A stretch of 55,408 bases of DNA, filler included, from Jimgerdemannia flammicorona (Eukaryota), in assembly GCA_003990765.1 (NCBI GenBank). It is 2 parts of 2 records of this genome, joined end to end, with 100 filler letters (N's around TTAATTAATTAA, not from the genome) between each part and the next. Parts side by side here need not be neighbours in the genome. Positions count along the whole stretch, not along the records: positions 1 to 27,658 come from RBNJ01000614.1; 1 more part is not named here. One strand, written 5' to 3'. Shown here one piece after another: positions 4,311 to 54,157 of this stretch (its first letter is position 1; each line of letters opens with the position of its first letter). A model generated the notes under the pieces. The model worked only from the letters and a program-made list of their open reading frames with translations, ran no database searches and had not been told where the DNA came from. The position numbers were made by a program, and so were the translations under genes.

Positions 4311-4689
4311 TCATTAAGATCTTAGTAGATTTGATCTACAAGCCATTGATTGAGATCTAGATCAGTGTTTTTCTAGTTCTATCTAGTCCTAATAGCTGTT
4401 GTAAGATAGGTCCTAGTCTGTCAATTAATTTTTAAATTACATATATAATTAGTTCTAAATATTCTCCTATCTAAGATTAGGTCTTAGTTCCAATTCACAG
4501 AATGGTCTTGATACTATCTTGGCTGAAAATTCTACTCTTACTAAGTTGTAATAATACTTATTTGAACCTCTTTTGTATTCTTGAATAACTTAAGTAATAA
4601 GATATTACTTAGAGCCTTGATATATATATATATCACGAAGTCATTCAATTGTTCTTTTATGTAGTAATATTTACTAAGATTGAGAAAGC

Positions 4690-5926
4690 AACATTCATAT
4701 CACACAAACTTCAAAACACACTTTTGAATCATTTATTGGAGAAAGCTACTAAGGACATAGAAACCAACAAGTGAGTCAACACATGTACTGGGTCGGGTGG
4801 ACATGGGGCCTTCAACTGGCAATACATTAGAAGAGAGTATGGATTGGGAATTGGGTCTTTTGGTGGTCCAAGTGGGCAGAGAAGTTCAGGTAGTGGTGGA
4901 GGGGCAGGAGGACAAGGGGGGAGAAGTTTTGCAGATATGCTGAAGGCTGGGGGATAGCCTGCTGGGTCTTGTAGTGGTCAGGCAGGGGGGAAGGGAAAAC
5001 AAAGAGAAGTGGGGGCAGGGAGTTCAGCAGCTCAACTGATAGATAGAAGAGCTAGTGGTGCAGTTGTGGGGGTGGAGGGGGGACTGCTGATGGGGGTGTG
5101 ACTGTAGATCGGGAAAAAAATCCAGATGTAATGGTTGATGGAAGAGCAGGGCTGCCAGGACCAAAGCAGATAGAGGACCTGACTGATGGTGTAACAGGGC
5201 TGGCAGTGGCACTGTTACTCAAGAAGTTGATATTAGAGTTTGCTATAACCTTGTGCTTCCAGAGCTTAGTGGTGACAGTAAGGATGGTTCTGGAGCTTAT
5301 CTCTAAGCAGGTGGCTGAAGCCACCTCCATGAGATTTCTGAAGGAGCTGGAGGGGGTTCAAGTGAGATTTGAGGAGGTGGGCCCAATAGAGAAAGTGTTG
5401 AAGACAAGAGTAGTTGTAGGTAAGGTGGTGGTCCCTATGGTGTATTGCTTAAGGTGATATCCCAGAGTGGTTCAGCTTTTGGTGAAGGGGGTGCCTACAG
5501 TGATGATGGCTGAGACCAGGAGGAGGGTTGAGGAGGTGATGGCAGAGTATGGTGATGTAGTTGATATTGGATTTCAGATATAGGAGGAGACTACTCTCAG
5601 GACTGGAGATGTGGATGTCAGGATCTGGCTAGCTGGGAAAGAGGCCACTGGGAAGTCAAGTGACTGACCTTTGGTTATGCTGTGGGGAGCCTTCATCTGA
5701 AAGGTATCAAGAGTGAAGGGGAGGGAGGAGGAGGAGGAGGATCTGCTGGAGGTATTGGAGGATTAGAGTGGAGTGGTAGAGAGGAAGACAAAGGCCTGGA
5801 AGGCATATATAGAGGTAACACACTTGGAGATTGTTGAAGGGAAGCATATTTGGGTTGACAAGAAAATGTGGAAGAGGTCCCAGGGCCACAAGTTGCAGAG
5901 GGAGCTACTGGTGAAGCTAGGGGGAG
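4690..5926 (+). mobile_element. 5' fragment of LINE (second 5' head type, ORF1 only), 3'-truncated against Gypsy sequence
   Basis: Head ACATTCATATCACACAAACTTC matches 21934. ORFs 5098..5457 and 5773.. match ORF1 of the other copies. The sequence switches abruptly to Gypsy RT at ~5927. Confidence 0.85.
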
Positions 5927-6860
5927 ACTATAAAACCCATCATATCACCCAATATAAATTCAGAAAATACAACACCTATCTGGCAGAAACTCTATAGAAT
6001 ACCCCATCTCTTAAAGACATTTGAAAAGGAACACATTCAAGAACTCTTAGACAATGGAGTCATCTGATCCTCTACTTGCCCTTGGGCCAGCCCCATACTT
6101 ATTGTACCAAAGAAAGGAGAATGGAGACTCTAGATAACAGAAAACTCAATTCAGTCACTAAGAAGGATACTGAGAATCAATGACCTCTTAGAATAGTTAC
6201 AAGATACCAAATACTTCAGCAGTATGGACCTTTTTACAGAATTCTATAAGAGCTCCATAGATCCCAAAGACTTTCAGAAGATAGCCTTTCTTACTCTAGG
6301 AAAACTGTTTGAATACCTCCAAATACTCTTTGGACTTTGCAATGCATCCACCATCTTTCAGAGAATGATGAACTCAGTCTAAGGTCTACTGATCTACCAC
6401 TGTCTAATTGTATATATTGATGATCCTAATAGCTATTCAGCAAATTTCAAGGAACACTTGCACTACCAAAAAGAATTCTTTAAGCTCACCCACAAGAACT
6501 ACCTGAGACTCAATACTAAGAAATACTACTTTGGAAAACAGAAACTTGAATTCCTTAGATTTATAGTTTCAAAAGAAGGAACTTATGTAGATATAAAGAA
6601 AACAGAGATAATTTACAACTGGCCAGTACTCAAGACCCTAAAGGAAATACTATTATTCCTGATACTAGTGTCTTATTATAGAAGATTTATCAAGGACTTT
6701 GCCCAAATTGCTACTTTAATCTGGATTCTTCTCAAGGAAGGAATACCATATAAATAGATAGAGTCACAAGTACTAGCCTTCAAGGAACTTGAGCATTACA
6801 TGACCACAGCACTAATCCTTATATATCCCAATCTATAGAAGCCATTCATCTTATATATAG
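5927..6860 (+). pseudogene. pol: Left half of an older Ty3/Gypsy pol (RT to start of RNase H), split by the younger full-length copy
   Basis: Collinear with 12635-13537 (LDNGVI, PWASPILIVP, VYIDD, LEFLRFIV, SYYRRFIKDFAQIA). It ends in FILYI immediately before the LTR. Confidence 0.9.
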
Positions 6861-8030
6861 TGTGACAAGCAATAGAATTGTACCACCAAATTCATAAATT
6901 AGCCATATACCACATCTAGTACACTAAGCAACCAAGACTACTTTACTGCACCAACTTGTATATTTAGCCAGAGACCCCAGAAACCATATGTTTACCTGTA
7001 CCCTCCAGGTATACCATACCCCCAAGGTACACCATACCCTTAAGGTACACTGTACCCTTCAGAAACACTTGCTGTAGATAGAAATCTATAGTTAGCAACA
7101 TAGTAACCAGTAGCAACCACAACTATATAAAATACCTCAGAGCTAAGAGTGAATAAACCTCAGTCTGAATTGAATTCAAAGCAAAAGTCAAGTCTGCCCA
7201 CCATACTTCAAGAGGAACTCTACAGCTACTGCTAGGAGATTGTGAGTAAAGCATTCCTTTTCACTCTGGTCTACTTTCTGATATAAAGAAGAGTTTGTTA
7301 TGTTTTTGGTTTGCTTGCCAGATATACCTGAAGAATCTGAGTTTGCTGTCAAGTTCAAGGAAGGACTTCACCACCATTTGAGTAATCCACCACTTAAGGA
7401 ATAAGCTGCCATTTCCAAGTTATCTGCACTCCCAGAAAGCTTACTATCCTTGCTACAAAGCCAGTCTGTTGATGCAACTTCACAGTAGAGTCAGTCTACC
7501 AATACAACTCCATGCAAGCGAAGCCAGTCTTGATGCAACTTTTCTCAAGAAAGTCCGTGACATCCAAGTTATCTGAGTTATTTAAATTATCCATGACATC
7601 TGAGTGATCCACACCATCTGAGTTATTTAGTGAGAAGAATCTGCCACTAGTGTAATTCCCAGTAAGCTGATTCAGGAGAATCCACGCGAAATTGAGTTAT
7701 CTGCCAAATTGGCAGAACGTCACACATAAGGAATCCACTATGCTATACAGTGACCATCACACTATACAAGAGATCATCATGCAGAAATCATATAAGAAAA
7801 ACTGCTAAATTACCAGACTGTCACCTATATACAAATCACTGCTATACCCAGAAGAACCATCCCAATAAGGAAATCAATACATAAATCACTTGCAGATATC
7901 CAGCTTTGACTATTATACTACTAAATACCAAGAACATTTTATTGCTTTTAACAAAGTAACTGGGGGCTCAAGGCAAACTACACCAACCTCCAACATTGTA
8001 ATTTATCTCCATTGAGGCAGGCATATTACA
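6861..8030 (+). repeat. 5' LTR (1170 bp)
   Basis: Starts TGTGACAAGC, ends ATATTACA and aligns end to end with 19056-20269. TATA-like TATATAAAA at 7124-7132 and AATAAA at 7152-7157 are similar in both LTRs. Confidence 0.95.
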
Positions 8031-8049
8031 TTTCAGGGCTCAACTAGGA
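8031..8049 (+). promoter_or_regulatory. Possible decayed primer-binding site (tRNA-Pro-like)
   Basis: TTTCAGGGCTCAACTAGGA directly follows the 5' LTR. It resembles the tRNA-Pro-type PBS TGGGGGCTCGTCCGGGA once CpG decay is allowed for. Confidence 0.35.
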
Positions 8050-8059
8050 AGATTTCATA

Positions 8060-9900
8060 ATCGACATAACTTTTTATCTCACAAGAACCTACAGTCAAAC
8101 TGGATACATTTGATACAACACCAATTTCTGCCACCACAGGAGAACCAGTCATCACCAGCATCTGGACAGAAAGAGAAGTAATTACTTCACTATACAGCAT
8201 AAGAAGGATCCCAACTGGAATCCAGTACAGCTCGAAATCCCTAACCAGATCAACCAGATAACACAGGTGGCCCTTTTGGAGACTTTGAAGAACTTGCCCA
8301 AGAACTAGAAGATCTTATTGCATAAGGCCGAAATCCTGCATCCAGGTACCCCAGAGCAGTTCCACCAATCTCACCCATTGAACCCTTACCATCAGCCCTT
8401 GCAGAACTGGAAACAGCTCCTTCAAGAATACCTAGGCTTATTCCATTTCGTCCAAGGTCCAGAACACCATCCTCAAGATACCCAAGCAACCCCATCTCCA
8501 GTGACAGTTCAGAAAGTGAATCAGAGTCAGAAACTGAATCAGAATCTGGACCAGAACCAGAATTAGAAGAAAGTGATAATGAAATGGCCACCTCATTGCC
8601 AATCTTTACAGGATATCTGAAGGAAGACCCTAGAAAATTCCTTGATGGAATTGAAGAAATTGCAGCTCTGGGAAATCTCTCAAATGAAAGGAAAATCACC
8701 TCTATAAGCCCCAGCTCAGAGAACCAGCCAGAGGAATTTTCCACTGAACAGCAAATGATCCAAATTCAGAACTGGCAATAGAAATACAAGCAGCAGTATC
8801 CTATTAGCTAGAATACATAGCTATGGCCCACTGGCTCATTGAAAAATATGCAGGAAATGAAACCCACCACAAGGCTCAAGAATTCATTATGGGGATGAGG
8901 ATGAACCTTTGTGAATTGTCCAGAGAATTTTTCACAAGAATCCAGAAGAGAATGCATGCAGCCAGGTTCAATGCCATCAACTAAGATATCATAGGTCCAA
9001 TGATCTTCATGAATGGAATTTTCTCAAACATTGCCCAGTATATCCACACTATAGGTATCAGAAGGTCTAAAGAGCAAGTAGATACAGCCTAAGGATTCTT
9101 TGATATCAGACAAGGAACTACCTGGAGTGATCATGACAAGAAGGATGATAAAGAAGACATCCTGGTCAAAGCCCTACAAGGACTCCTTCAAGGACAAGAG
9201 AGATCTGAAGAAAGAAGGCCAGCCAAAGAAGGAAAGAAGGACAGGAGCAAAATCTAAGATCTCAGCTCCAAGTTAGACAGATTGGTTGGACAGATTGAAA
9301 AGCTCCCCATATGTGAAAATTGGAGTTATCAAGACAACAGAGAATAACCACCACAAAGGAGCCAAAGTTATCCACCAAGAGATAATAAGAACTACCAGTA
9401 AGAAGAAAGAAAATATCCTGTCCAAGATAGAACCCAAGTTCAATACTTCCACTGTGGACAATTTGGACACTATGCTACCAAATGAGACAATAAAAGAAGT
9501 GACTGAAGGGACTCAGAACCACCAAACTGAAGGAATGACACCAAGTACAAGAAGACTGAAGCCCATCCTGTCCAAGATTTTGGGGAAGGAAGCAACAGTG
9601 AAGACAACAGTGACCTAGAATTGTACTCAGCCAAAGTCACTACCCAAAGACAGTTTACCCAGCAGACAAAAGAAAGAGATCTGTAGGAAGGCAGCAGAAG
9701 GATTGTCCAAGAAGAAGACGAAGAATATGAGGAGGAACAAGTAGAAACACCTCCCCAGACTCCTCCACTGTCTCTGAGACAAATGAGATGCCACTAGAGA
9801 ATGAAGAAATGGAACAAGAAGAATGGGAACCTGCTCCCAAGAAGAAGTATGCCTCAAAGACTATGCCCAGAGACATCTATAATGAAGCCTGGCAGAAGAT
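8060..9900 (+). pseudogene. gag: gag (capsid + CCHC zinc knuckle), interrupted
   Basis: MATSLPIFTGYLKEDPRKFLDGIEEIA at 8584 is a capsid-like start preceded by a Pro/acidic extension. A decayed knuckle YFHCGQFGHYATK* lies at ~9440-9485. Boundaries approximate. Confidence 0.75.
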
Positions 9901-10059
9901 CCAAGAAGCCAGGATAGAAGTCGTTCTCCTACAGTTCCTGCGACTGATACTAGCTGGAGTCTGAAACAAATTGCTGAGGACCACAAGGTCTAGCACTGGC
10001 CAAGTCCCCATCCCACAGCAAGAGCCAGCTCCTACACCTATCTAAGCTGCAGAGAAACA

Positions 10060-10430
10060 TATCAGCACCTACGTATATGGAGATATTAGAGGACAAAAGA
10101 CAAAAATCTTCAAAGACACAGAAGCAGCCATCTGTGTCATTGCCAAACAATTCCTGGATACCCTCCATTGGCCCATTAATGGACCATCCAATCACAGCAT
10201 CATAGTAGCAGATGGAGCCCAAACTCAACCCCTTGGAGAAATATGAAATATTATTATCTCTCTTGGACACATTTAGTTCTCAATCCCAAAAGCTATTATC
10301 ACCAAAGCTATCATCTATGACATGATCCTTGGCACCAACTGGATGAAGAAAATGAATGCAGTTGTTGATATCAGTCAACAAGTACTCAAGTATGACTACT
10401 GAGGCAAGAAGTATAGGGTTAAGGTGACCA
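10060..10430 (+). pseudogene. pol: Retropepsin-like aspartic protease domain
   Basis: IFKDTEAAICVI (DTG to DTE by GGA>GAA), IIVADGAQTQPLGEI and YDMILGTNWMKK. Confidence 0.85.
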
Positions 10431-11739
10431 GCTGTGAACAATCAAAGAAGAAGAAGAAGGTCACTATCTAGGAAGAATATGCCAGCAGTAAAGAATCTAT
10501 CATAGAAGAGAAAGAGGAATCCGAAGATGGAAATGATCCCAGACTCAATCCCCAAATCAATCTGGTGGATGATAGGCCAGAAGACAATATAAGGGCCAAG
10601 AACACTATCTCCATTACTATTGGAGCAATTGCAGGAGAAATGAAGGGATGCCCTACCTGCCTCAAGAGATATAAGTGCCCTAAGCACTCCTCCAAGATCA
10701 TTGGGACAAGGAATTCGCCTGGTACAGCCTGCTCTGAGTACAGAAAGAAGAAGAAGAAATGCAGACATATTCCAGAGACACCTGTAGCCGAAGCTGCAGA
10801 AGTACAAGCAATCTGGGGTCAAGAGTCATTAGAGAAAGATGAAATCCCCAAACAGGAGGTTCCTGAACAAGAAGCATCCAAAGGAGAAGAAGTCCCTGAA
10901 CTCATTCCCTGGAATAACCCTAACTGGACACCACCTGAAGATAATGACTCTTGGAAAATAGAAGAAGGACTCAGCACAATCTCCATTATTCCCAAGAAAG
11001 AAACTCACCAAGAAAGAGTTTTTTGGCTAAGAAGATGTCCACACCAAATGGTCCTCTACTCTCCCCAAGATTACTGCTATCAGTATCACCTACTAGACCA
11101 GCAGGAAAGATAGAGACCCCAAATACCAGAACCCCTGACTATAGTTGCACAGTCAACTACCTTCCAAAAGTTACTACCAAGTTACAAAGTTGATTTAGAG
11201 GATAAGGTCTCTTCACCTGAATAGAAGTATACTCTTTTCCAAACTTATGACTAAGTTGGGTACTGATTCCTGAGACAACAAGAGATCAACAACCAGGAAC
11301 AGCATTTTCAAGCAATGGGATATTGTAACCATAGAAGACATCCAGACTGCAGAGATGGCAGATATCAGAAGATTCACCTCAGTCATGATGTTGTGATTCA
11401 CACCTTGAAGAGAGGAGATAACAGAAGCTAGATCTGAAAAAACCAGACCAAAAAGAAAGGAAAAAGGACCCTCAAGATCTATGATTTAGGAGAAGACATC
11501 CTAGCTCTCATCAGAAATACAACCCACCAAGGATGGGTAGAAGATGCTACCAACTTCATGAAACCCTAGACCCTACAGGAAAAAGAGGAATCAATCACCT
11601 CTGAGACCCCTATATAGGAGCCAGATGGCCACACCTCAACCTCAGAGCCTGAAGGCTCTCTGCTAGTGGAGCTTCAGCCCAAGGACAGCCCAAACTCAGT
11701 AAGGATATTGCCCAGTATGCCCTGCTACATCTCAAGGTG

Positions 11740-12115
11740 AAACCCCTGACCAAAGCTCACCCAGAAGATGTAAAATATGATCTTCACAGTCTGGAGGATG
11801 AATCCAACAAGCCTGGAAGAACATTCATGATCAGAACTATACTAGCTATATGACCACTCCAAAACTTACATTCAACTGACATCAAGGTCTAGACTTGTCA
11901 GACAAGGAATAACCATAGAAGGAGGAACCATTGACCCAAGATATACAGGCAAAATCAAAGTCATCCTGCACAATAGCAGCACAGAATAGCACCAAATCAT
12001 AAGAGGACAGAAGATTGCCCATGCAGTCTTCATAATGGTCAAAACCCCACAATTACAAAAAGTCTCCAAATTGACTGAAGGAACAAGGCTAGCCAAAGGA
12101 TTTGGAAGCTCAGAC
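11740..12115 (+). pseudogene. dut: Trimeric-type dUTPase domain within pol (between protease and RT)
   Basis: All five motifs in order: EDVKYDL, TSRSRL, EGGTIDPRYTGKIKVILHN, RGQKIAH, RLAKGFGSSD. The second copy at 35315-35690(-) gives EDIGYDL, SRSGLARQG and EQKIAQV. Confidence 0.92.
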
Positions 12116-12519
12116 AAGAAGGAAGTATACCTCCTTCAGGTCAATTTCCTCAAGAGGAATGTTCCCCAGCAAGTGTACTGCCAATCAGTCAAACTGCACA
12201 AGAATCTCATCCTAGAGCCTAGAGAGCAAACCACCTTCGAAATCTTTGCACCACCAGACCCCACAAACCTCTTCTTTGAACCCAATGAAGATATCCCACA
12301 TCTGGACATTGAAGGACACACATTCCCCAACAAGATGAATCCAGTGCACTCCCAAGCAACCAATCAAAGTTGGGAAACCATCATCTTGCCAAAAGGAACC
12401 ATCATAGGACACCTGGTGCCTTTTCTTAACTGAACTCATAGAGAGGTTTATGAACTAAACTTATTGGGAAATGGCAAAAGGTCCCAGAAGAAAGGAAAGG
12501 CCCCTCTGCGACCCAGTAG

Positions 12520-13562
12520 ACAGTGAAGCCTTCCACCAACATTGGAGAAGAATTGCCACCTCAGCAATGGCAACAACTAGTTGAACTCCTCAACAAATAT
12601 CAAGATATCTTCACTACAGTCCATGGCAACCTGCCATACAATCCATCATATCACCGCAGCATAAATACAGGAAATGCAACACCCAACTGGCAGAAACCCT
12701 ATAGAATACCCCATCACTTAAAGATATTCAAAAAGGAGCACATTCAAGAACTCTTAGACAATGGAGTCATCCGACCCTCAACTAGCCCCTGGGCCAGTCC
12801 TATACTTATTGTACCATAAAAAGGAGGATGGAGACTATGCATAGATTACAAGAAACTCAATTCAGTTACCAAAAAGGATACCTATCCTTTGCCCAGAATT
12901 GATGACCTCTTGGACCAGTTGCAAGATACCAGATACTTCAGCAGTATTGACCTTTTCATAGGATTCTATTAGATCCCTATAGACTCAAAAGACATTCAGA
13001 AGACAGTCTTTCTTGCCCTAGGAAAACTGTTTGAATATCTCTGAATGCTCTTTGGACTTTGCAATATACCCCCCACCTTTCAGAGGTGATGAATTCAGTC
13101 TATGCCCCCCTGATCTACTCCTACCTGATTATATATATAGACAATTTAAGAATACTTCAGGCTCATCTGCCAGAACCACCTGAGACTCAATGCTAAGAAA
13201 TATTACTTTGGGAAATAGAAACTTGAATTCCTTAGATTTATAGTTTTGAAAGAAGGAACTCATGCAGACCCAAAGAAAACTGAGAAGATCAAAAACTGGC
13301 CAGAACCCAAGACCCCAAAGGAAACACTATCCTTCCTAATACTAGTATCCTACTACAGAAGGTTCATCAAGGACTTTGCCCAAATCACAGCCCCAATCTG
13401 AGTCTTTCTCAAGAAAGGAGTGCCTTATAAATAGATGGAATCACAAGAAAGAGCCTTCAAAGAACTCAAGAACTATATGACCACAGTACCAATTCTTATG
13501 CACCCCCATCTATAGAAGCTATTCATCTTATATACAGATGCTTCTAAAGATGGCCTTGGAGC
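12520..13562 (+). pseudogene. pol: Reverse transcriptase and start of RNase H of the Gypsy element
   Basis: [66 protein letters not shown] and FILYTDASKDGLGA. Confidence 0.95.
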
Positions 13563-16500
13563 GCTGAAGGGATTGGAGGCTGATCTCTTCCTCTTGCAGA
13601 ATGTCAGGTATGAGGATGATTCTGATAGGATGAAATGGATGAAGGAATGGGGAGGTGTGGCGATTTGGAAAGGCAAGGTTGGGATTCTGGTTAGGAAAGG
13701 CAGAGGAGAGATAAGGAATATGAGGAGCTGGGGGGAGAGACTGGTCTGGGGTGAGTGAATTCATGCAGGCTGGGGGCCTGTAACAGTTGGCTCCTGTTAC
13801 TGCCCTGTAGTACAGGGTGAGTATGTAGATTGGGTGAAGGGTCTCCAGGAGAGTGGGATCCTTGCAGAGGCTGGGGTGGATATGCTTGGAGGAGATTTCA
13901 AAATGGTTCGGGATATACTGATGGATAGAACAGATGGAGGATGGGGTGCTGAGAGCAGGAGTGGAGGGCTGGCAGAGTGGGAGGAAGTAGAAAGACTAAG
14001 TGTGCTGGTAGATGCTGGTAGGGAGTGCTGGGGGGATAGGAGGGTTTATATGCATTGGACAGGGGGCCTGGGGACAAGAATTGACTGGATTCTGATGGCC
14101 AGTTACTGGGGCCTAGATGTTTGGAAGTCGCTAGAGGTGGAATGGTGTCCATGGTCGGATCACTGGGGGCTTTGGGACAGGGGCACTTTGGGGGGAGTGG
14201 GGATGGGCCTGGACATTGGTGCCTAAATTCCTCTTTGTTAGATGATAAGACCCAGTGGGATGAGTGGGCTAAGGACATTCAACTGAGGGTGGAGAACTGG
14301 CAGCAGGAAGGTGCCTCAGTTGGTATTCGGTGGATGAGGATGAAAGAGATGGCCAAGATCTACTGGAGTGAGGCCAGCAAGGAGACAGGGAAGCAGAGAA
14401 GGTGAAGAGTGCATTGGGCTTCTACTAGATTGGCTAGGCTCCTAGAGGAGTGGGTGAGGCTGGTGATGTTGGAGGGGGAAGAAGATTGGAGATTAATGAG
14501 GGCAAAGATGGAGGTTGGAGAACTACAACAAGTGCTGTGAGAAGAGGAAGAAGCAAGGGTACAAAGCTTGGTAGCATGGCTTCATTGACAGGATCTGGAG
14601 GAAGGGGAGAGGCCTTCTGAGTTTCTTATGAGGGCCCTTTGGGCAAGAAGGGTACAGCAATGGTGAGAAGGAGTACTTGACTCTGATGGTGTACTAGTGC
14701 ATAGTGTACAGGACATTCTTGGATCGTTGAAGGAGTGATGGAGTGGATTGTGGAGTGAGGAGGAGGGTGAGGTGGATGCTGCTGCCATTGACTGAACATT
14801 GGAGGATTGGTACCCACCATAAGTAGAGGGGCTAGGTGACTTGGTGATGTCTGTACAGGAAGATGAGATCCACCAGGTTCTTGCTGCAACAACACCAGAT
14901 ACAGAACCTGGGGAGGATGGTCTGCCCTGGGACTTCTGGAAGTGAATGGTGGGAGACCCAGGAGTGATGAGAGAGGGCATTGTGTGATTTTATCCTACAG
15001 ACAGGGAGATGGGTGGGGGAGCAGGATCTTGGGCTGGTGATGCTGCTGTATAAGAATAAAGGAAGGTGAGAGGATTGGAAGAACTGACAGCCAATAATGT
15101 TGCTAGATATGGACAGAAAGTTGGTGACTATAGTGGTGGTTGCAAGGCTACAGAAGGTGGCCCAGCAAGTTGTAGATGTTGAGCAGAGGGGATTTGTGGG
15201 AGGTTGGCTCATTAGGGATGGCACAGCCTGAGTACATGGAGTTATTGAAGGGGCAAGGGCCTGTGGACTGGATGGGCAATTTATCTTCTTGGACCAGAAG
15301 AAGGCTTACAACTGGGTGTGATGAGTTTGGCTGGCAAAAGTATTGGATAGAACTGGGGTTCTGCACTAATTCTGGTCAGCAATGGTCAGCCTACTGGAAG
15401 GAAGTAGGGCTGCACTCATGTGTAATGGACATAGTGGGATAGTATTCCCCCTGGATAGAGGGGTGCCCCAGGGAGACCCACTGTCCCCCATTCTGTATGC
15501 TCTTTCCCTGGAACCCCTAATGGACAGAATTAGGCAGAGGATAATGGGGCTCCCTGTTTTCGAAATTGGGTGGAAAGTTGGGACCTTTGTAGATGACATG
15601 GTGGTTGGCTTGGGATCAATTGCTGATGTTGAGAAGCTCAAGAAGACAGTGGAGTGGTATGAGGAGAACTCTGGGGCTAAGCTTAATTGGCACAAGTGTG
15701 AAACAATGGTGCTAGATAATAGCCTGGTGGGAGGAGAGGTTATAGGAACAATCATCCCCACTGGTGAGGCAGTGTGGTACTTGGGCATCTATTTGTCAGT
15801 CTATGGGTCAGTTCTTCCCAGGCTTTGGTGGAAGCAGAGGATTGGAATCTGGGAGGAGGCCCTGCAGGATTGGGGGGAAAGATACTTTTCTCTGGCAGGG
15901 CATGTCTTGATTTTGAATATCTATTGGCTGCTGAAGTTATGGTATCTGGCTTATCATCTGGACTTCCTAGCTTGGGTGGTGAAAAGATTGATGAAGCTGG
16001 CTAAGGGATGGATCTGGGCTGGCAGAAGGAGTCAGATTGGTTGGGAGACCTTGTCCTTACTGGTGGCAAGAGGTGGCCTTGGGTTGGTTGACTTTCCAAA
16101 ATGGCTACACTGCTTGAGAGCATGGTGGCTAAAGAGAGCAGTGGAGTTGAGAGGAGGTGGTTGGGTTTCCCTACTGCAGAAGGTCTGGGAGAGGCAGTCA
16201 TCACCAAGAGGCTTGACTGGCAATCTCCTTTCATTGGTTAGACTTCAGAATACTGAACAATTGTGATATAAAGGATTCTGGTGGGAGAAAGCAGAGGGGG
16301 TGCACCACATTGGAATTTGTTGGCAGGAGAATAAAGGGGAGGTGGCTTGGGACCTGGTGATGTAGAGGTGGGATCATATACTGCTGGGTGGCATTCCTTT
16401 AATTGAGTTCAACATTAGTGATGGAATGGAATGCCAAAGGGGACCAGGCCAGGATCTGTGGCCTAGCAGTTGACAAGGAGTTGGAATTGGAGAAGAGTGG

Positions 16501-17192
16501 AACTGGTATAGTGTTTGGACCCGGAGTACCACAGTGAGAAAGTGGATGCTGCTGAAGTACTGAGTGGTCTGGTGGTGCATGCTGAGGAGGAATGTAATGC
16601 TCAACTTCCACTCGGGTCAGCTTATCATAGGGGGTTGCTTCGACTGTGAGGAGTGCCATAATGTAGAGCAGGAAGAGAGTTATGTACAGATGCCAGAATA
16701 TTGGCTAGGAGAGTGTGAGGTGATGGGGGACTTTTAGTGGGCCATTGGGGATCACTTGGGGGTAAGGAGTAGGGGAGATGAAGTACAGGGGTGGTGGGAG
16801 AACTTGAGGGATTGATTGGTAGGGGGGGTAGATAAGAAGTGGCTTACCTTAGGCTGGGCTTTGGCCATTTGGGTGGGGCTGGCCAGTCACTGGCTATTTG
16901 TTTTTAAGGATGGAAGGAGACAGGGCTTGGGAGACCAGTTGTTGTGGTGGTATAGTCTTATGGAAGACACCTTGACAGGCTGGTGGCTTGGTTGGGGGCT
17001 GCAGGGTGATCAGAGGCACCACTTAGTGAAGAAAATCTGTGGACAGAGTGGGGGAAGAGTTGGAGTAGTGGGTGAGAGAGTGATCTTCATTTGTGAGAAG
17101 GTGTAGAGGGGCTCCCCTATGGGGATTGGGTAGTGGGTGGTGATACTGTATACTTATTCATAGACTGGTAATAAAGATGGAGTCCAAGTAAC

Positions 17193-17220
<28 letters not shown>
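13563..17220 (+). mobile_element. 5'-truncated L1/Tx1-like LINE (EN-RT-Cys domain, 3'UTR, poly(A)) inserted in Gypsy RNase H
   Basis: 17-bp TSD AAAGATGGCCTTGGAGC (13546-13562 and 17221-17237), AATAAA at 17170-17175 and poly(A) from 17196. Motifs: GGDFKMV, RIDWIL, WSDH, GPGHWCLNSSLL, GVPQGDPLSPILY, FVDD, YLGI. Confidence 0.95.
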
Positions 17221-17223
<3 letters not shown>

Positions 17224-17237
17224 GATGGCCTTGGAGC

Positions 17238-18600
17238 ATCTCTAGCCCAAGAAGGACCTGACCAACAGTACTATATGGTAGTTTATAATAACTGACCATA
17301 CAGCCCTCAAATGGCTATTCAACCACAAAGAACCTACTGGAATCCTAGTCTACTGGACCCTTATCCTCCAGGATTACAAAATCACTATTATTCAAAAAGC
17401 AGGGAAAGCTCATGATAATGTTGATGTACTTTCCTGCCAACTCCAATATACTGGAAGAAGGGTGTCCTGAGGAACTATACCCTAAAGGAAGCTCCTCAGA
17501 TCATTAAGGCATAAGAAGACCTCATCTGGAAAGAACATCAGAAAGCCCATCAAGAATAGGTGAACATAGAAGAAAAGTTATAAACAACATACCAACTTTG
17601 GCCCAATCTCAGAACATAAGTCTGAGATATACTCAAGAAGTAAGATGTCTGTCAGAAGTACTAAGGAAGGAAGAACTACCAAGTATAACTACATCAAATT
17701 GTCCCATCAGACAACATTTTCCAGAAATGGAGAGTAGATGTAATTGGACCTTTACCTGTTATACTAAGAAGAAACAAGTACATTCTTATATTTGTAGAAA
17801 ATCTGACTAAGTGGCCTGAGGCTTTCTCAATGGAAATTGCAGATACCTTAATCATTGTAGGCCTTCTCCATAGACTCACTCTCAGATATGGACCTCCAGA
17901 AGAACTCATCTCTGATGGAGGTAGAGAATTCATCAACAACATAATCACAAGTTATATCTAAATTCACAAGATCCACCTCAAACAGACCTCATCATATTAC
18001 CCCCAGACCAATGGAATGACAGAAAGAATGAATCAGACCATCAAGAAAGAACTTGCCCCAGTCAATTCTACCAACTGAGAACTCTGCTTACCTGAGATCC
18101 TATGGGAAATTCAGAACACCCCTGCTGCCCCCACCAAACAAAAGCCATTCAAAATAGTGTTTGCCAAGAGAACTAGAACTGCTGATCATGAAAATCTAGA
18201 GAACCTTCCCAAGAAGGCAGAACAGTTATATAATCAGGCTTGAGTTCAGATTTTTAAAGCCCAAGAAAGACAAAAGTACTATGACCAGAAGCAGAAGGAT
18301 CAGGATATCAAGATTGGAGATCAAGTACTAGTTTGGAGAAGTATGATTGAAACGAATTCTGCTGCCAAACTGGAGCCCAAATGGGAAGGATCTTATCTTG
18401 TACACAACATCAGAGAAACCAACATCTATTTAAGAAGCATAGATGGATGGACCCTCAGGACACCAGTATACATCAATCGCCTCAAGATATATCTCTCCCA
18501 TCATAAACCAGACAATTGACCAGCACCTCTAAACTCTTATTTTGAGTTCATTCCAATCACTCCCAGTTCCCCTTCCACAATTCCAACAAGCCAATAGAAA
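17238..18600 (+). pseudogene. pol: RNase H C-terminus and integrase (HHCC, DDE, GPY/F) of the Gypsy element
   Basis: GKAHDNVDVLS, VDVIGPLP, PEELISDGGREF, YPQTNGMTERMNQTIK and KLEPKWEGSY; no chromodomain visible. Confidence 0.92.
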
Positions 18601-19027
18601 CCCCCTTCAGTGAATTCAGACCTATCAAGAGAACCTCACCTTGGCCAGATGTTTACTCTAAGTCCACCAGCTATAGGCCTACTATGCAATTGAAGAACAG
18701 TTGCAGAACCCACCAGCAGCAGACCTGACCTACATCAGAAACTCTACTGGCCTCACCTGGAAAAATATCACTGCTGCAGACAGATTATATATAATCTACA
18801 AATAAAATGTCACAGTACTGATATAGGCACAATTCCTCCTGAATGACATCCAAAACATGAATCCTGCCACCTACTAGAGCATTATCAACCATGTTGAGAT
18901 CCTGTTTCCAGAGGAAGAGGAAAAATCTGTCAAATGGAGTAACTCCGATCCAAATGAAGATACTGGTTCAGGTATTGATGCTGAAGATGCTTATGCATAT
19001 TGAAATGATGACTAAAGGATTGTCTGA
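18503..19027 (+). pseudogene. Extra ~174-codon ORF (ORF3) between integrase and 3' LTR, unknown function
   Basis: One frame without net frameshift; its stops are mostly explicable as CAA/CAG/CGA/TGG transitions. The start ATA-AAC-CAG corresponds to ATG-AAT-CAA at 21633 in the older copy. A homologue lies at ~31806-32329(-). Confidence 0.7.
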
Positions 19028-19055
19028 AGACAAACCATCCTTTAGTAGGAGCTGA

Positions 19056-20269
19056 TGTGATGAGCAATAGAATTGTACCACCAAATTCATAAATTAGCCA
19101 TATATCATATCTAGTACACTAAGTAACCATGACTGCTTTACTGTGCCAACTTGCATATTTAGCCAGAGATACCAGAAATAGTATGTTTTCTTGTACCCTC
19201 TAGGTACACTGTACCCTCAAGATACACTGTACCCTCAAGGTATACTCTACTCTCTAGGAATAATTACCATAGATAGCAATCTATAGTTAGCAACATACTA
19301 ACCAGTAGCAACCACAACTGTATAAAATACCCCAGAGACAAGAGTGAATAAACCTCAGTCTGAATTGAATCCAATACAAAAGTCAAGTCTGCCTACCACA
19401 CTTCAAGAGAAACTCTATAGCCACTGCTAGGAGATTGTGAGCAAAGCATTCCTTTCCACTCTGGTCCACTTTTCAATATAAAGAAGAGTTTGTTACATTT
19501 TTGGTTTGCTTGCCAGATAAGCCTGAAGAATCTGAGTTTATCACCAAGTTCAAAGAAGAACTTCACCACTATTTGAGTAATCTGCTGCTTAAAGAATAAG
19601 CTGTCATTTCCAAGTTATTTACACTCTCAGAAAGCTCACTATCCTTACTACAAAGCCTGTCTGTTGATACAACTTTACAGTAGAGCTAGTCTAATGATAC
19701 AACTCCATATAAATGAAGCCCATCTAGATGCAACTTTGCTCAAAAAAGTCTGCAACATCCAAGTTACCTGAGATATCTGAATTATCCACAATATCTGAGT
19801 TACTCGAGTTATCTGAATTATCTATAACATCTGAGTAATCCATGCCATCCAAGTTATTTATCCATTTCTAGTGAGAAGAATCCACCACCAGTATAATTCC
19901 CAGTGAGCCAATTCAGAAGAATCCAGGCCAAATTGAGTTTTCTGCCAAATTGTCAGAACATCAAGCATAAGGAATCCACTGCACTATACAGAGACCATCA
20001 TGCTATGCAAGAGATCATCACATGGAAATCATATAAGGAAAACTGCTAAATTGCCAGACTGTTACCAATATACAAATCTCTGCTATATCCAGAAGAACCA
20101 TCCCAATAAGGAAATCAACACATAAATCACTTGTAGATACCCAGCTTTGACTATTATACCACTAAAACCAAGTATATTTTGTTGCTTTTAACAAAGTAAC
20201 TGGGGGCTTAAGCCAAACTACATGAACTCCCAACCTTGTAATTTGCTCTATTGAGCCAAGCACATTACA
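19056..20269 (+). repeat. 3' LTR (1214 bp)
   Basis: TGTGATGAGC...CACATTACA, preceded by a weak purine tract (TTAGTAGGAG) and followed by TSD ATAG. Confidence 0.95.
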
Positions 20270-20273
20270 ATAG

Positions 20274-21655
20274 ATACTTTGAAAGATAGCCTTGGAGCAG
20301 TTCTGATTTAGAAAGGACCTGACCAACAATATCATATGATAGATTATGCAAGCCAAGCTAATAATCAGCAGCAGATCAACTATGGTAGTACTAAATTAAA
20401 ATACCTTGTAGTCATTTGGATAGTTACCCTATTTAAACATTATCTTATTGGAAAAAGCTTCACCCTGATAACTGACTCTACTGCCCTCAAATGACTATTC
20501 AACTATAAGAAAATGACTAGAATCCTGGCCTACTAGATTCTTATCCTTTAAGATTACAAAATCACTATTATTCACAATATAGAAAAAGCTCACAATAATG
20601 TTAATATACTTTCTCACCAACTCTAATGAACCAGAAAAGGGGTGTACTGAGGAACTACACCCTAAAGAAAGCTCTTCTGATTAGCAAGGCACAAGAAGAT
20701 CTCATCCAAAAAGAATACCAGAAAGCCCACCAAGGAAGGTAAATATAGAAGAAAAACTGCAAATAATATACCAACATTGGCCCAATCTCAGAACTCAAGT
20801 CTGAGACATACTTAAGAAACATGATATCTGCCAGAAGTACTAAGAAAATAAGAATTATTAAACACCATTACAACCAATTGTACCACTAGACAACATCTTC
20901 CAAAGATTGGGAGTTGACATTATTAGAACTCTATCAATTATATGAAGAAGAAACAAGTATATACTAGCATTTGAAGAACATCTGACCAAGTGGCCTGAAG
21001 TCTTTCCAATAGAAATCCAAGATTTCCTGACCATTATTGGCCTTCTCCATGAAGAACTCATCTCTAACTAAGGTACAGAATTCATTAACAATATAATCAC
21101 AAGTTATACTCAAATTCACAAGATTCATCTTAAGTGTACCACATCATATCACTCTCAGACCAATGATATAGAACAAATGAACCAGACCATTAAGAAAGAA
21201 CTTGCCTGTGTCAATCCTACCAACTGGGACCTTTGCTTACCTGAGATCCTATGGGAAATTTAGAACACTCCTGCTGTCTCTATCAAATGAAAGTCATTTG
21301 AGATAATGTTTGCCAAGAAAACCTGAACAGCTGACCATGAGAACCTCAGAGACCTCCTCAAGAAGGCAGAATAGTTATATAATCTGAGTTCAGATTATCA
21401 AGACTGAAGATAGACAAAAGAAGTACTATAATCAGAAGTGAGATTGGAGATCAAGTACTAGTTTGGAGAAAGGATAATTGAAAAACACTTTGCTGCTAAA
21501 CTAGAGCCCAAATGGAAGGATCTTATCTTGTACACTATATTAGAGGAACCAGCATCTATTAAGAAGTATGGATGGATAAACCCTAAGGATACCAGTATAC
21601 ATCTTGTCTTAAGAGATACCTCTCTCCACATAATGAATCAAGGATTTACCAGGAT
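20274..21655 (+). pseudogene. pol: Right half of the older Gypsy pol (RNase H + integrase), cut off by a LINE
   Basis: FKHYLIGKSFTLITD, LGVDIIR, SYHSQTN and KLEPKWKDL; continues in frame from 6860. Confidence 0.9.
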
Positions 21656-27658: not shown

Positions 27659-27758
27659 NNNNNNNNNNNNNNNNNNNNNNNNNNNNNNNNNNNNNNNNNN
27701 NNTTAATTAATTAANNNNNNNNNNNNNNNNNNNNNNNNNNNNNNNNNNNNNNNNNNNN
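27659..27758. other. Assembly gap/artificial contig spacer
   Basis: 44 N + TTAATTAATTAA (27703-27714, stop codons in all six frames) + 44 N = exactly 100 bp. Confidence 0.97.
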
Positions 27759-52920: not shown

Positions 52921-54157
52921 ATGGCAACAAGACTAACTCGGAAAGGGCTCTCGGCCTTCATTGTCTTTATAGTTTTAGGTGCGACGTTGGTAGCCACCGA
53001 TCTAGGTCCGTCGGGTTTCTGATTTGGTGACTCCTACAGAACATCCTCGTTGAGATTCTCTTCTGCTTTCTAATCCTCCGCCATTTGGCAAACAGGGCCC
53101 CGTCAGTATGGCTGCACCTTCGTCTACAACAACCGCTTCCACGTCCTCGGCGGCGAAGGAGTCAACAGCACCACTCATGTCGTTTTCGCCTACACTGAAT
53201 TCCCCCTCGACCTCACCAAAGGCCCGCCCACCTGGCACGCTCTATCCATCAATGAAACCTTCCTTAGTTCTTCCCACAACAACAGCGCCACCATTATTCA
53301 ATCCTACCTGAATCCCTGCGTTGTGACACCGAACGGCACCCTGATCGTCGGTGGCAGCGACTGGATCGGTTATGACATCGCCAAAGATAGCTGGCTGGGC
53401 CCTTTGAACCTCGTCGGCAACGTCTCCTCCCGTTTGTCCCCCTCCTGCGTCGACTGGGACAGCTGCTGGAAACCCATGGTCCAAGTGAATGATTCACTGT
53501 GGATATTTCAGGAGTTCGGCAACACTAGCGCCTCCGTATCAGAGACAGATATCGACATCCTCAACTTGACGACGTTTACGTGGACCACTAGGCAACAAGA
53601 TTTCACCCGCACACCCATACCGTTAGAAATGCGTTTCACCGCACTCTATTACTTGTCGCCCGCAGACCTTGCCATTTCCGCAAACGGGGTGATATTCATG
53701 ATTGGTGGAGTGACGCAGTTGAATGCGACAAAGTCCCAATATAACCAGATTATTTGGATGTTCGATTTGCAATCGTACTCGTGGGGTTCGTCACCGACGA
53801 CGCTTCCTATAGGAGTCAGCCACCATCATCTATTCTATCACTCTGCCACCCAAAAACTGTACGTCTACCCAGGTAAATTAAAACCGTCTCTGTCACGCAC
53901 ATGGTTGTTAGGAATTGGTAGCCCCTTTTTCAATATTGCTGAACCCAAATTCAACCTTCTTCATCATGGTCAAAATCAAAACAGGAGTATTGGATAGCGG
54001 CCCCACTATCCCAAATAATAACATGCAAGTGCTGAGCATCACGTTTGCCGGTATCAACGCATCACTTCTTCCCGCGCCACCTGCACGAGTTGGAGGATGT
54101 GTAGCACAACAGGGGAACATGGTGAGTTTGCAGTACGATTCGCATCATATCAAACCG

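What the first reader, a model, noticed from the sequence alone, without database searches (positions are those of the whole stretch)
18503..19027. Hidden third ORF after integrase: non-env protein of unknown function
Seen: a frame missed by the ORF track because of stops, overlapping the end of pol in +1 with no net frameshift: (M)NQTIDQHL*TLILSSFQSLPVPLPQFQQANRNPLQ*IQTYQENLTLARCLL*VHQL*AYYAIEEQLQNPPAADLTYIRNSTGLTWKNITAADRLYIIYK*NVTVLI*AQFLLNDIQNMNPATY*SIINHVEILFPEEEEKSVKWSNSDPNEDTGSGIDAEDAYAY*NDD*RIV*. The older copy keeps ATG-AAT-CAA at 21633. The minus copy has TGG and CAA where this one has stops (NPLQWIQ, LLQVH, DDQKIV). No signal peptide, TM segment or chromodomain; it looks helical with an acidic tail. 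Inference (speculative): an accessory gene such as an anti-silencing or targeting factor (cf. VANC of VANDAL transposons), in a genome that mutates its repeats heavily.
Basis: partly seen in the sequence, partly recalled or inferred. Interest (0 to 1): 0.75.

Follow-up and report, generated by a model that had tools for sequence, protein, structure and literature searches.

The report
Fungal retrotransposon's extra regulatory-looking gene
A decayed jumping gene of a fungus carries a real, conserved extra gene of an undescribed family behind its integrase, and its build, together with family-specific repeats in the element's own promoter, suggests (unproven) that it switches the element on.

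Summary
The ORF is real, but it is 170 codons (18503-19015), not 174: the ninth 'stop' is the family's true stop. The other eight are decay. It is the last gene of a dUTPase-bearing Ty3/Gypsy element, probably of an Endogonales fungus. All 20 copies picked for having one stop are open; dN/dS between subfamilies is about 0.1-0.2. It is the fourth ORF, since integrase has its own frame, and both junctions have stop-start geometry. No Pfam, PHROG, PDB or fold match was found. The protein has a basic helical core and an acidic, aromatic tail. Each subfamily's U3 carries its own array of dyad-symmetric 16-19 bp repeats; helix type and repeat type agree in 60 of 60 callable copies, though linkage alone could give that. 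Best guess (0.4): a self-encoded LTR activator or anti-silencer, like Tas or VANC. Two open stand-alone copies sit among host genes. This scan reported this ORF and the split integrase before on other DNA of the same genome; the repeat match, the stand-alone pair and a hairpin at the stop did not appear in the notes I saw.

The parts
18503..19015 (+). This copy is dead: 8 internal stops, start codon reads ATA
   Evidence: 19 of 30 subfamily-A copies begin with ATG
17446..18519 (+). Integrase as its own ORF (HHCC, DDE core, GPY motif, no chromodomain); its stop lies 11 nt after the ORF3 start codon
   Evidence: (rve E 5.5e-7, under the Pfam cut-off)
19011..19046 (+). Conserved hairpin running from the ORF3 stop codon to the purine run before the LTR; explains why RIV looks conserved
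   Evidence: (z -2.5)
19047..19055 (+). Short purine-rich run in the polypurine-tract position
   Evidence: label by position, recalled
19056..20269 (+). 3' LTR (TGT...ACA), followed by target duplication ATAG
19192..19258 (+). U3 array, 3.7 copies of an 18-bp dyad-symmetric unit, about 60 nt before a TATA-like box at 19319; proposed ORF3 target
6861..8030 (+). 5' LTR, preceded by ATAG; holds the same array at 6999-7069
8031..8041 (+). Primer-binding-site position (TTTGGGGGCTC in younger copies; tRNA-Pro-like from recall)
8080..12526 (+). Decayed ORF1: Gag with zinc knuckle, protease, dUTPase (5' end approximate)
   Evidence: (dUTPase E 0.0035)
12466..12472 (+). -1 slippery-site position between ORF1 and RT-RNase H (G GGA AAC in younger copies and in L111)
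12473..17450 (+). Decayed RT-RNase H ORF, interrupted by the LINE
13563..17223 (+). LINE inserted into RNase H, with poly(A) tail and target duplication
   Evidence: (RVT_1 E 7.7e-15)
21633..21650 (+). Start of ORF3 in the older copy into which this element is nested; truncated after a few codons
31818..32329 (-). Second, frameshifted ORF3 copy on a different contig of the joined window

Best explanation
SHOWN: this is a dead copy of a real accessory gene, the last of four ORFs (Gag-PR-dUTPase / RT-RH / IN / ORF3) of a Ty3/Gypsy clade; it is kept by purifying selection and encodes a soluble protein with a mildly basic helical core (about residues 1-135) and a disordered acidic-aromatic tail. 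INFERRED (likely): it is translated from the genomic RNA by stop-restart after integrase. INFERRED (the committed guess): the core binds, as a dimer, the dyad-symmetric tandem repeats in the element's own U3, and the tail recruits host transcription or chromatin machinery, so each subfamily activates or de-silences its own LTR in a genome that decays its repeats at CpG and CpA. This would work like foamy-virus Tas or VANC without being homologous to either.
For: Gene: open in 20 of 20 copies picked for a single stop; transversion pN/pS 0.18-0.20 between subfamilies A and B against 0.92 and 1.67 in the other two frames; NG86 w 0.08-0.25 in the 17 of 28 subfamily pairs where it could be computed; same layout on 3 metagenome contigs. 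Anatomy: core pI 9.1-9.9, tail net charge -11 to -18 with 3-7 W/F/Y/L, no hydrophobic segment; AF2 model with core pLDDT about 70-85 and a helix-turn(G)-helix at 72-101. Target: 16-19 bp tandem arrays upstream of TATA, different in each subfamily, rich in 5-bp dyads (typically 2-24 per copy against 0.5-0.7 in shuffles). Match: 60 concordant, 0 discordant of 90 copies (4 helix not parsed, 26 no repeat called). Flanking segments are mosaic (1, 1, 2 and 4 of 43 copies nearest to another type) while repeats are not (0 of 43); L091 carries BC core and BC repeats in C-like flanks. Residues 81-90, the start of the second helix, are the least conserved block (0.38; 0.33). Precedent: Tas has a DNA-binding domain and an acidic activation domain (PMC3798896); VANC targets are tandem repeats that differ between related TEs (PMC5735166).
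Against: No binding or expression data. Core and repeats lie about 450 nt apart, so one block moving together gives the same concordance; the repeat patterns were written after seeing the subfamilies; copies are related, not independent. U3 repeat arrays are common in LTRs as host-factor sites (own knowledge). No significant likeness to any DNA-binding family: DUF1016_N probability 1-2% with 5 of 100 and 2 of 40 shuffles as good, DUF3102 0.2%; no HTH protein stands out in fold searches (best Z 5.7-5.9, generic bundles). The core is only mildly basic (net +2 to +4) and has no basic cluster that would serve as a nuclear signal. Acidic tails also serve many other roles. A gene translated from the LTR-driven RNA can only give positive feedback unless an internal promoter exists, which was not tested.
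Confidence: 0.4

Rival explanations
1. Integrase partner. Because integrase is made as a free protein here, ORF3, translated right after it, packages it into particles or tethers it to chromatin, standing in for the missing chromodomain.
For: ORF3 follows the split integrase with stop-start coupling in all subfamilies seen and in 3 metagenome contigs; integrase has no chromodomain.
Against: ORF3 type is uncoupled from integrase 3' type: BC cores occur behind B-type (4 copies) and C-type (1 copy) integrase ends, and ORF3 cores differ by 45% where the integrase end barely differs. Two open copies persist with no integrase nearby.
Confidence: 0.2
2. Non-sequence-specific counter-defence: the acidic tail mimics nucleic acid or binds histones, or the protein suppresses RNAi or methylation in general.
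For: Strongly acidic conserved tail; heavy CpG and CpA decay of repeats shows strong host silencing (CpG o/e 0.29); faster evolution than integrase (transversion ratio 0.18-0.20 against 0.05).
Against: Does not explain why core type tracks the U3 repeat type or why variation peaks at residues 81-90.
Confidence: 0.17
3. Self-limiting factor: ORF3 binds the LTR or the particle and represses the element (copy-number control); the host has kept copies as restriction factors.
For: Two open stand-alone copies in a single-copy, gene-rich region; the closest element relatives of one of them carry 7-8 stops. DNA binding to U3 would fit repression too.
Against: Acidic-aromatic tails are typical of activators (PMC3798896 for Tas; otherwise own knowledge); the family reached at least 150 scored copies.
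Confidence: 0.13
4. Env-like or cell-to-cell transfer protein.
For: It sits in the env position.
Against: No hydrophobic segment (best 19-residue Kyte-Doolittle mean 0.6-1.4 in 7 proteins); no env family in Pfam.
Confidence: 0.03
5. Not a gene: conserved 3' non-coding DNA that happens to be open.
For: This copy has 8 internal stops and no ATG; the 3' end abuts a conserved hairpin.
Against: Frame-specific purifying selection, in-frame length changes between subfamilies, fixed start and stop.
Confidence: 0.01

Closest known systems
dUTPase-bearing fungal Ty3/Gypsy elements (PosPlaTy3-5 of Postia placenta) and the 'add. ORF with unknown function' drawn for fungal Gypsy elements (PMC2864245, passages read)
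   Same: LTRs, PR-dUTPase-RT-RH-IN order, an extra ORF of unknown function
   Different: Here no chromodomain, integrase is a separate ORF, and the extra ORF family matches no library entry. Whether the paper's add. ORF is homologous was not tested; its figure and supplements were not seen.
Non-env ORF3s of bdelloid rotifer LTR elements (Juno, Vesta, TelKA; PMC5408684, passages read)
   Same: dUTPase-bearing Ty3/Gypsy elements with a 3' extra ORF
   Different: Those ORF3s are env, GDSL esterase, DEDDy exonuclease, coiled-coil or TM proteins and are said to come typically from spliced messages; this one has none of these domains and stop-start geometry.
VANC of VANDAL MuDR transposons (PMC5735166 abstract and section 9; PMC6719617 passages)
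   Same: Element-encoded accessory protein; related families differ in tandem-repeat motifs
   Different: DNA transposon of plants, DUF1985/DUF287 domains, binding and demethylation shown; here a 170-aa unrelated protein, repeats only looked for in U3, nothing shown.
Foamy-virus Tas (PMC3798896, PMC12789967, passages)
   Same: Small 3' accessory gene with a proposed DNA-binding part and an acidic tail acting on its own LTR
   Different: Retrovirus, expressed from an internal promoter; no sequence or fold likeness found.
Coupled termination-reinitiation (AUGA, UAAUG, AUGnxUGA; victoriviruses, CHV1, SART1; PMC5972666 passages)
   Same: AUGA or AUG-n11-UGA at the IN/ORF3 junction, AUGA at the RH/IN junction
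   Different: Two such junctions in series in an LTR element; no cis-element identified, no translation data.

Membership tests
Ty3/Gypsy LTR retrotransposon | Paired TG...CA LTRs with target duplication | tested here: met
   6861-8030 and 19056-20269, 83% alike, ATAG on both sides
Ty3/Gypsy LTR retrotransposon | Order PR-RT-RH-IN | tested here: met
   motifs read; rve hit
Ty3/Gypsy LTR retrotransposon | Integrase in frame within one Pol polyprotein (usual state) | tested here: not met
   RH ends at a stop; IN starts at an overlapping ATG in 16 of 17 copies and 2 of 3 metagenome contigs
Ty3/Gypsy LTR retrotransposon | Placement by RT phylogeny | not tested
   no tree built
Env-like ORF3 | Signal peptide and transmembrane segment | tested here: not met
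   hydropathy maximum 0.6-1.4; no dedicated predictor run
Chromovirus chromodomain | Chromodomain after integrase | tested here: not met
   no Pfam hit in ORF3; all-helical model; integrase ends shortly after the GPY motif
VANC | DUF1985 / DUF287 domains | tested here: not met
   Pfam scan of 10 members to E 1
VANC | Family-specific tandem-repeat targets | tested here: inconclusive
   family-specific arrays present; binding not tested
VANC | Induces loss of DNA methylation on cognate elements | not testable with these tools
   needs expression and methylome data
Tas-like transactivator | Acidic activation domain | tested here: inconclusive
   composition fits; activity not tested
Tas-like transactivator | Sequence-specific binding to own LTR | not testable with these tools
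   only covariation
Tas-like transactivator | Internal promoter | not tested
   no RNA data
DUF1016_N (PF17761) / DUF3102 (PF11300) | Profile-profile similarity | tested here: inconclusive
   DUF1016_N aligns on the expected motifs but at probability 1-2%, 5 of 100 shuffles as good; DUF3102 0.2%, 19 of 100; the two families against each other 28%
DUF1016_N / ParB-type helix-turn-helix | Shared fold | tested here: inconclusive
   no such chain among the top rows; model pTM 0.52
Termination-reinitiation | Start codon overlapping or just before the upstream stop | tested here: met
   geometry from PMC5972666
Termination-reinitiation | Dependence on upstream translation and a cis RNA element | not testable with these tools
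   needs reporter assays

The most novel reading that the evidence does not exclude
An LTR retrotransposon clade of early-diverging fungi encodes its own sequence-specific activator or anti-silencing factor, of an undescribed helical family, that co-evolves with palindromic U3 arrays so that each subfamily runs a private promoter circuit; it is made as the last cistron of a four-ORF RNA with two stop-restart steps, and the host has domesticated copies of it.
Probability: 0.3. Interest if true: 0.82.

Novelty: new variant of a known kind. Interest (0 to 1): 0.55.

Why it matters
Self-encoded sequence-specific regulators are known from complex retroviruses (Tas) and from plant DNA transposons (VANC). 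My searches showed none described for a fungal LTR retrotransposon, though subscription journals and Repbase are not covered. Five or six natural protein/repeat pairs make a ready specificity matrix, so the idea is cheap to test and would give small orthogonal regulators. Even if the function differs, the gene is a conserved, unnamed part of a very abundant element family, and the stand-alone pair may be a domestication.

Tried and rejected
Pfam on the X-read window protein and on 10 natural members: nothing under E 0.06. PHROGs on 13 members: best E 0.06. PDB sequences: best E 0.2 and 0.057. ESM Atlas with two natural members: no usable hit. HMMER over 1.8 billion representatives: 5 true hits, all unnamed, and 1 spurious repeat protein; this also failed to reach the Glomeromycota post-integrase proteins that I recalled as look-alikes, so that lead is untested. 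First AF2 run pLDDT 42, discarded. Foldseek PDB and BFVD: no match at E 0.001 or better; VIA best Z 5.7 and 5.9 to generic bundles. DUF3102 and DUF1016_N: no match in the own genome and no significant profile match. ORF3 scans of metagenome and viral contigs: 0 of 409 and 0 of 41 candidates confirmed. RNA runs: none was listed. Complex prediction (ORF3 with integrase, ORF3 dimer) was not available, so both remain open. No perfect family-type dyad was found within C2821:3001-7500 around the stand-alone pair. The 174-aa reading was rejected.

Full report
Setting. The window joins two contigs at an N spacer; only 1-27658 is G000:C614. It is a nest of decayed Gypsy elements and LINEs with CpG o/e 0.29. 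A kelch gene at 53074-53994, on the other contig, is 83% identical to a Jimgerdemannia flammicorona protein, so the host is probably an Endogonales fungus. The finding lies in an element at 6861-20269 with 1.2-kb LTRs and an ATAG duplication, nested in an older relative and itself hit by a LINE.

The observation. The quoted translation is exact. In 30 close copies the frame holds 2-11 stops per copy before codon 175 (mean 6.4), at shifting places; only codons 171 (28 of 30) and 175 (30 of 30) are shared, whereas the other frames have 5 and 9 near-fixed stops. In the columns where some copy stops, the others mostly carry Gln or Trp codons, and C-to-T differences between copies are commonest at CpG (0.44) and CpA (0.24). 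A protein search scored 150 of 1627 candidates. I took 20 of those 150 that had a single stop in the match; all 20 are open from ATG to a stop after WDDD-like ends, 171 codons (169 in one). That sample is chosen for openness, so it proves existence, not frequency. Database homologues P0002 and P0003 end at the same place. The ORF is therefore 18503-19015. The RIV that follows is part of a hairpin from the stop to the purine run: 88% of cells pair, and one pair switches G-C to A-U in 12 of 29 rows, 0 of 500 shuffles as high, though one slid control had a higher covariation score and both changes are of the common decay type.

Selection. Between subfamilies A and B (570 non-independent pairs) the transversion pN/pS is 0.20 overall and 0.18 in the core, against 0.92 and 1.67 when the core is read in the other frames and 0.05 for the integrase end. 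Between single representatives NG86 w is 0.08-0.25 in 17 of 28 pairs; the other 11 are saturated.

Layout. Younger copies show four ORFs: Gag-PR-dUTPase; RT-RH entered at a G GGA AAC site in the -1 frame; integrase, whose ATG overlaps the RH stop as ATGA in 16 of 17 copies; and ORF3. ORF3 starts in an ATGA overlap in 19 of 20 B copies and in subfamily C, and as ATG-n11-TGA in A, D and E. Of 14 metagenome loci found with the integrase, 3 are close (84-87%) and all 3 carry ORF3 directly behind it; 2 of 3 keep ATGA at each junction. I looked at 6 of the 11 distant loci (26-34%); none showed this ORF among frames of 100 codons or more, one has an env-like ORF. These geometries fit coupled termination-reinitiation (PMC5972666, passages). 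The start context is also a good scanning context (ACC ATG), so a subgenomic RNA is not excluded; no RNA run was listed.

Protein. Homologues are few and unnamed: 5 true hits among 1.8 billion representatives and 16 with a wider profile, 53-85% identical. AF2 on 11 sequences gave mean pLDDT 64.8, pTM 0.52, with helices 34-68, 72-81, 86-101, 103-109, 113-118, 121-132 and a disordered tail from 138. Family, sequence and fold searches gave nothing significant. From memory the pattern resembled DUF1016_N and DUF3102; tested against alignments of 34 and 25 natural members, DUF1016_N aligned on the expected motifs but at 1-2% probability with 5 of 100 shuffles as good, and DUF3102 failed. The core is basic (pI 9.1-9.9), the last 36 residues carry -11 to -18 with several aromatics, and no segment is hydrophobic.

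A candidate target. Tandem Repeats Finder found a 16-19 bp array of 2-5 units before the TATA-like box in 26 of the 27 LTR starts examined; the unit differs by subfamily: GGTAC-n3-GTACC (A), GTACAG-n3-CTGTAC (B), TGACAG-n3-CTGTCA (C), GGACAG-n3-CTGTCC (BC), TGTCC-n3-GGACA (D), GTACC-n5-GGTAC (E), read by eye through the decay. Of 90 distinct copies, 60 had both helix and repeat callable and all 60 agree; 4 had an unparsed helix and 26 no called repeat. In 43 copies (5 of 48 dropped for missing flanks, including both D), the nearest neighbour belonged to another helix type for 1 integrase end, 1 N-terminus, 2 intervening segments and 4 TATA regions, but for 0 repeat regions; L091 has BC core and BC repeats within C-like flanks. 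Residues 81-90 are the least conserved block. Against this: types are defined by the core, patterns were post hoc, and a single linked block explains concordance equally well. It is a lead that makes the model testable, not proof.

Stand-alone copies. G000:C2821 holds two open ORF3 genes head to head (4543-5019 minus, 159 aa; 5424-5915 plus, 164 aa), 55% identical to each other, in single-copy DNA (next best 73%) among host-like genes with far less CpG loss; no other part of the element matched the contig apart from a few integrase-end codons. The element relatives closest to the minus gene carry 7-8 stops, and the plus gene has lost the hairpin. Domestication is plausible, but escape from methylation would also spare them; w against element copies mixes in the element's own history.

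Mechanism and verdict. Gene real: about 0.97. Stop-restart translation: likely, unshown. LTR-binding activator or anti-silencer: 0.4; integrase partner 0.2; general counter-defence 0.17; repressor 0.13. Extra ORFs in Gypsy elements are known (PMC2864245, PMC5408684, passages; figures and supplements not seen and could bear on homology). Tas (PMC3798896, PMC12789967, passages) and VANC (PMC5735166 abstract and one section; PMC6719617, PMC13547354 passages) are functional analogues only. Eight paper searches (listings only unless named above) showed no description of this family. Earlier notes of this scan on other pieces of this genome already report the ORF and the split integrase; a word search for the U3 repeat link returned nothing. 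Class: new variant of a known kind; interest 0.55.

Noticed in passing
G000:C2821:4543-5019 (-) and 5424-5915 (+), loci L097/L099: Two open, diverged, stand-alone ORF3 genes head to head in single-copy host DNA; possible domestication. A short tail-like remnant also lies near 6777-6821.
   Followed up: partly
window 17446 and 20625 region; loci L059-L078, L111-L113: Integrase is a separate ORF whose ATG overlaps the RNase H stop (ATGA); already noted by earlier scan reports.
   Followed up: yes
window 19011-19046: Conserved 36-nt hairpin joining the ORF3 stop to the polypurine-tract position, with one compensatory pair; role unknown (plus-strand priming or packaging are guesses).
   Followed up: partly
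window 10600-11500; L073, L078, L111: Long Cys/His-rich and acidic region between protease and dUTPase in ORF1, with no Pfam hit in the piece scanned.
   Followed up: no
window 19350-20269 and LTRs of L059-L098: The LTR downstream of TATA is built from short modules shuffled in order and number between copies, unlike the stable U3.
   Followed up: no
whole window: Repeats decay by C-to-T at CpG and also CpA (0.44 and 0.24 against 0.09 at CpT), a RIP-like or methylation-driven spectrum in a Mucoromycota-type genome.
   Followed up: partly
window 27659-27758: N spacer with TTAATTAATTAA: the window is two joined contigs, so cross-half neighbourhood means nothing.
   Followed up: yes
window 53074-53994: Kelch-repeat host gene fragment, 83% identical to a Jimgerdemannia protein.
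   Followed up: partly
L117:6173-8710: A distant Gypsy element on a metagenome contig has in-frame integrase and an 846-aa env-like ORF.
   Followed up: no
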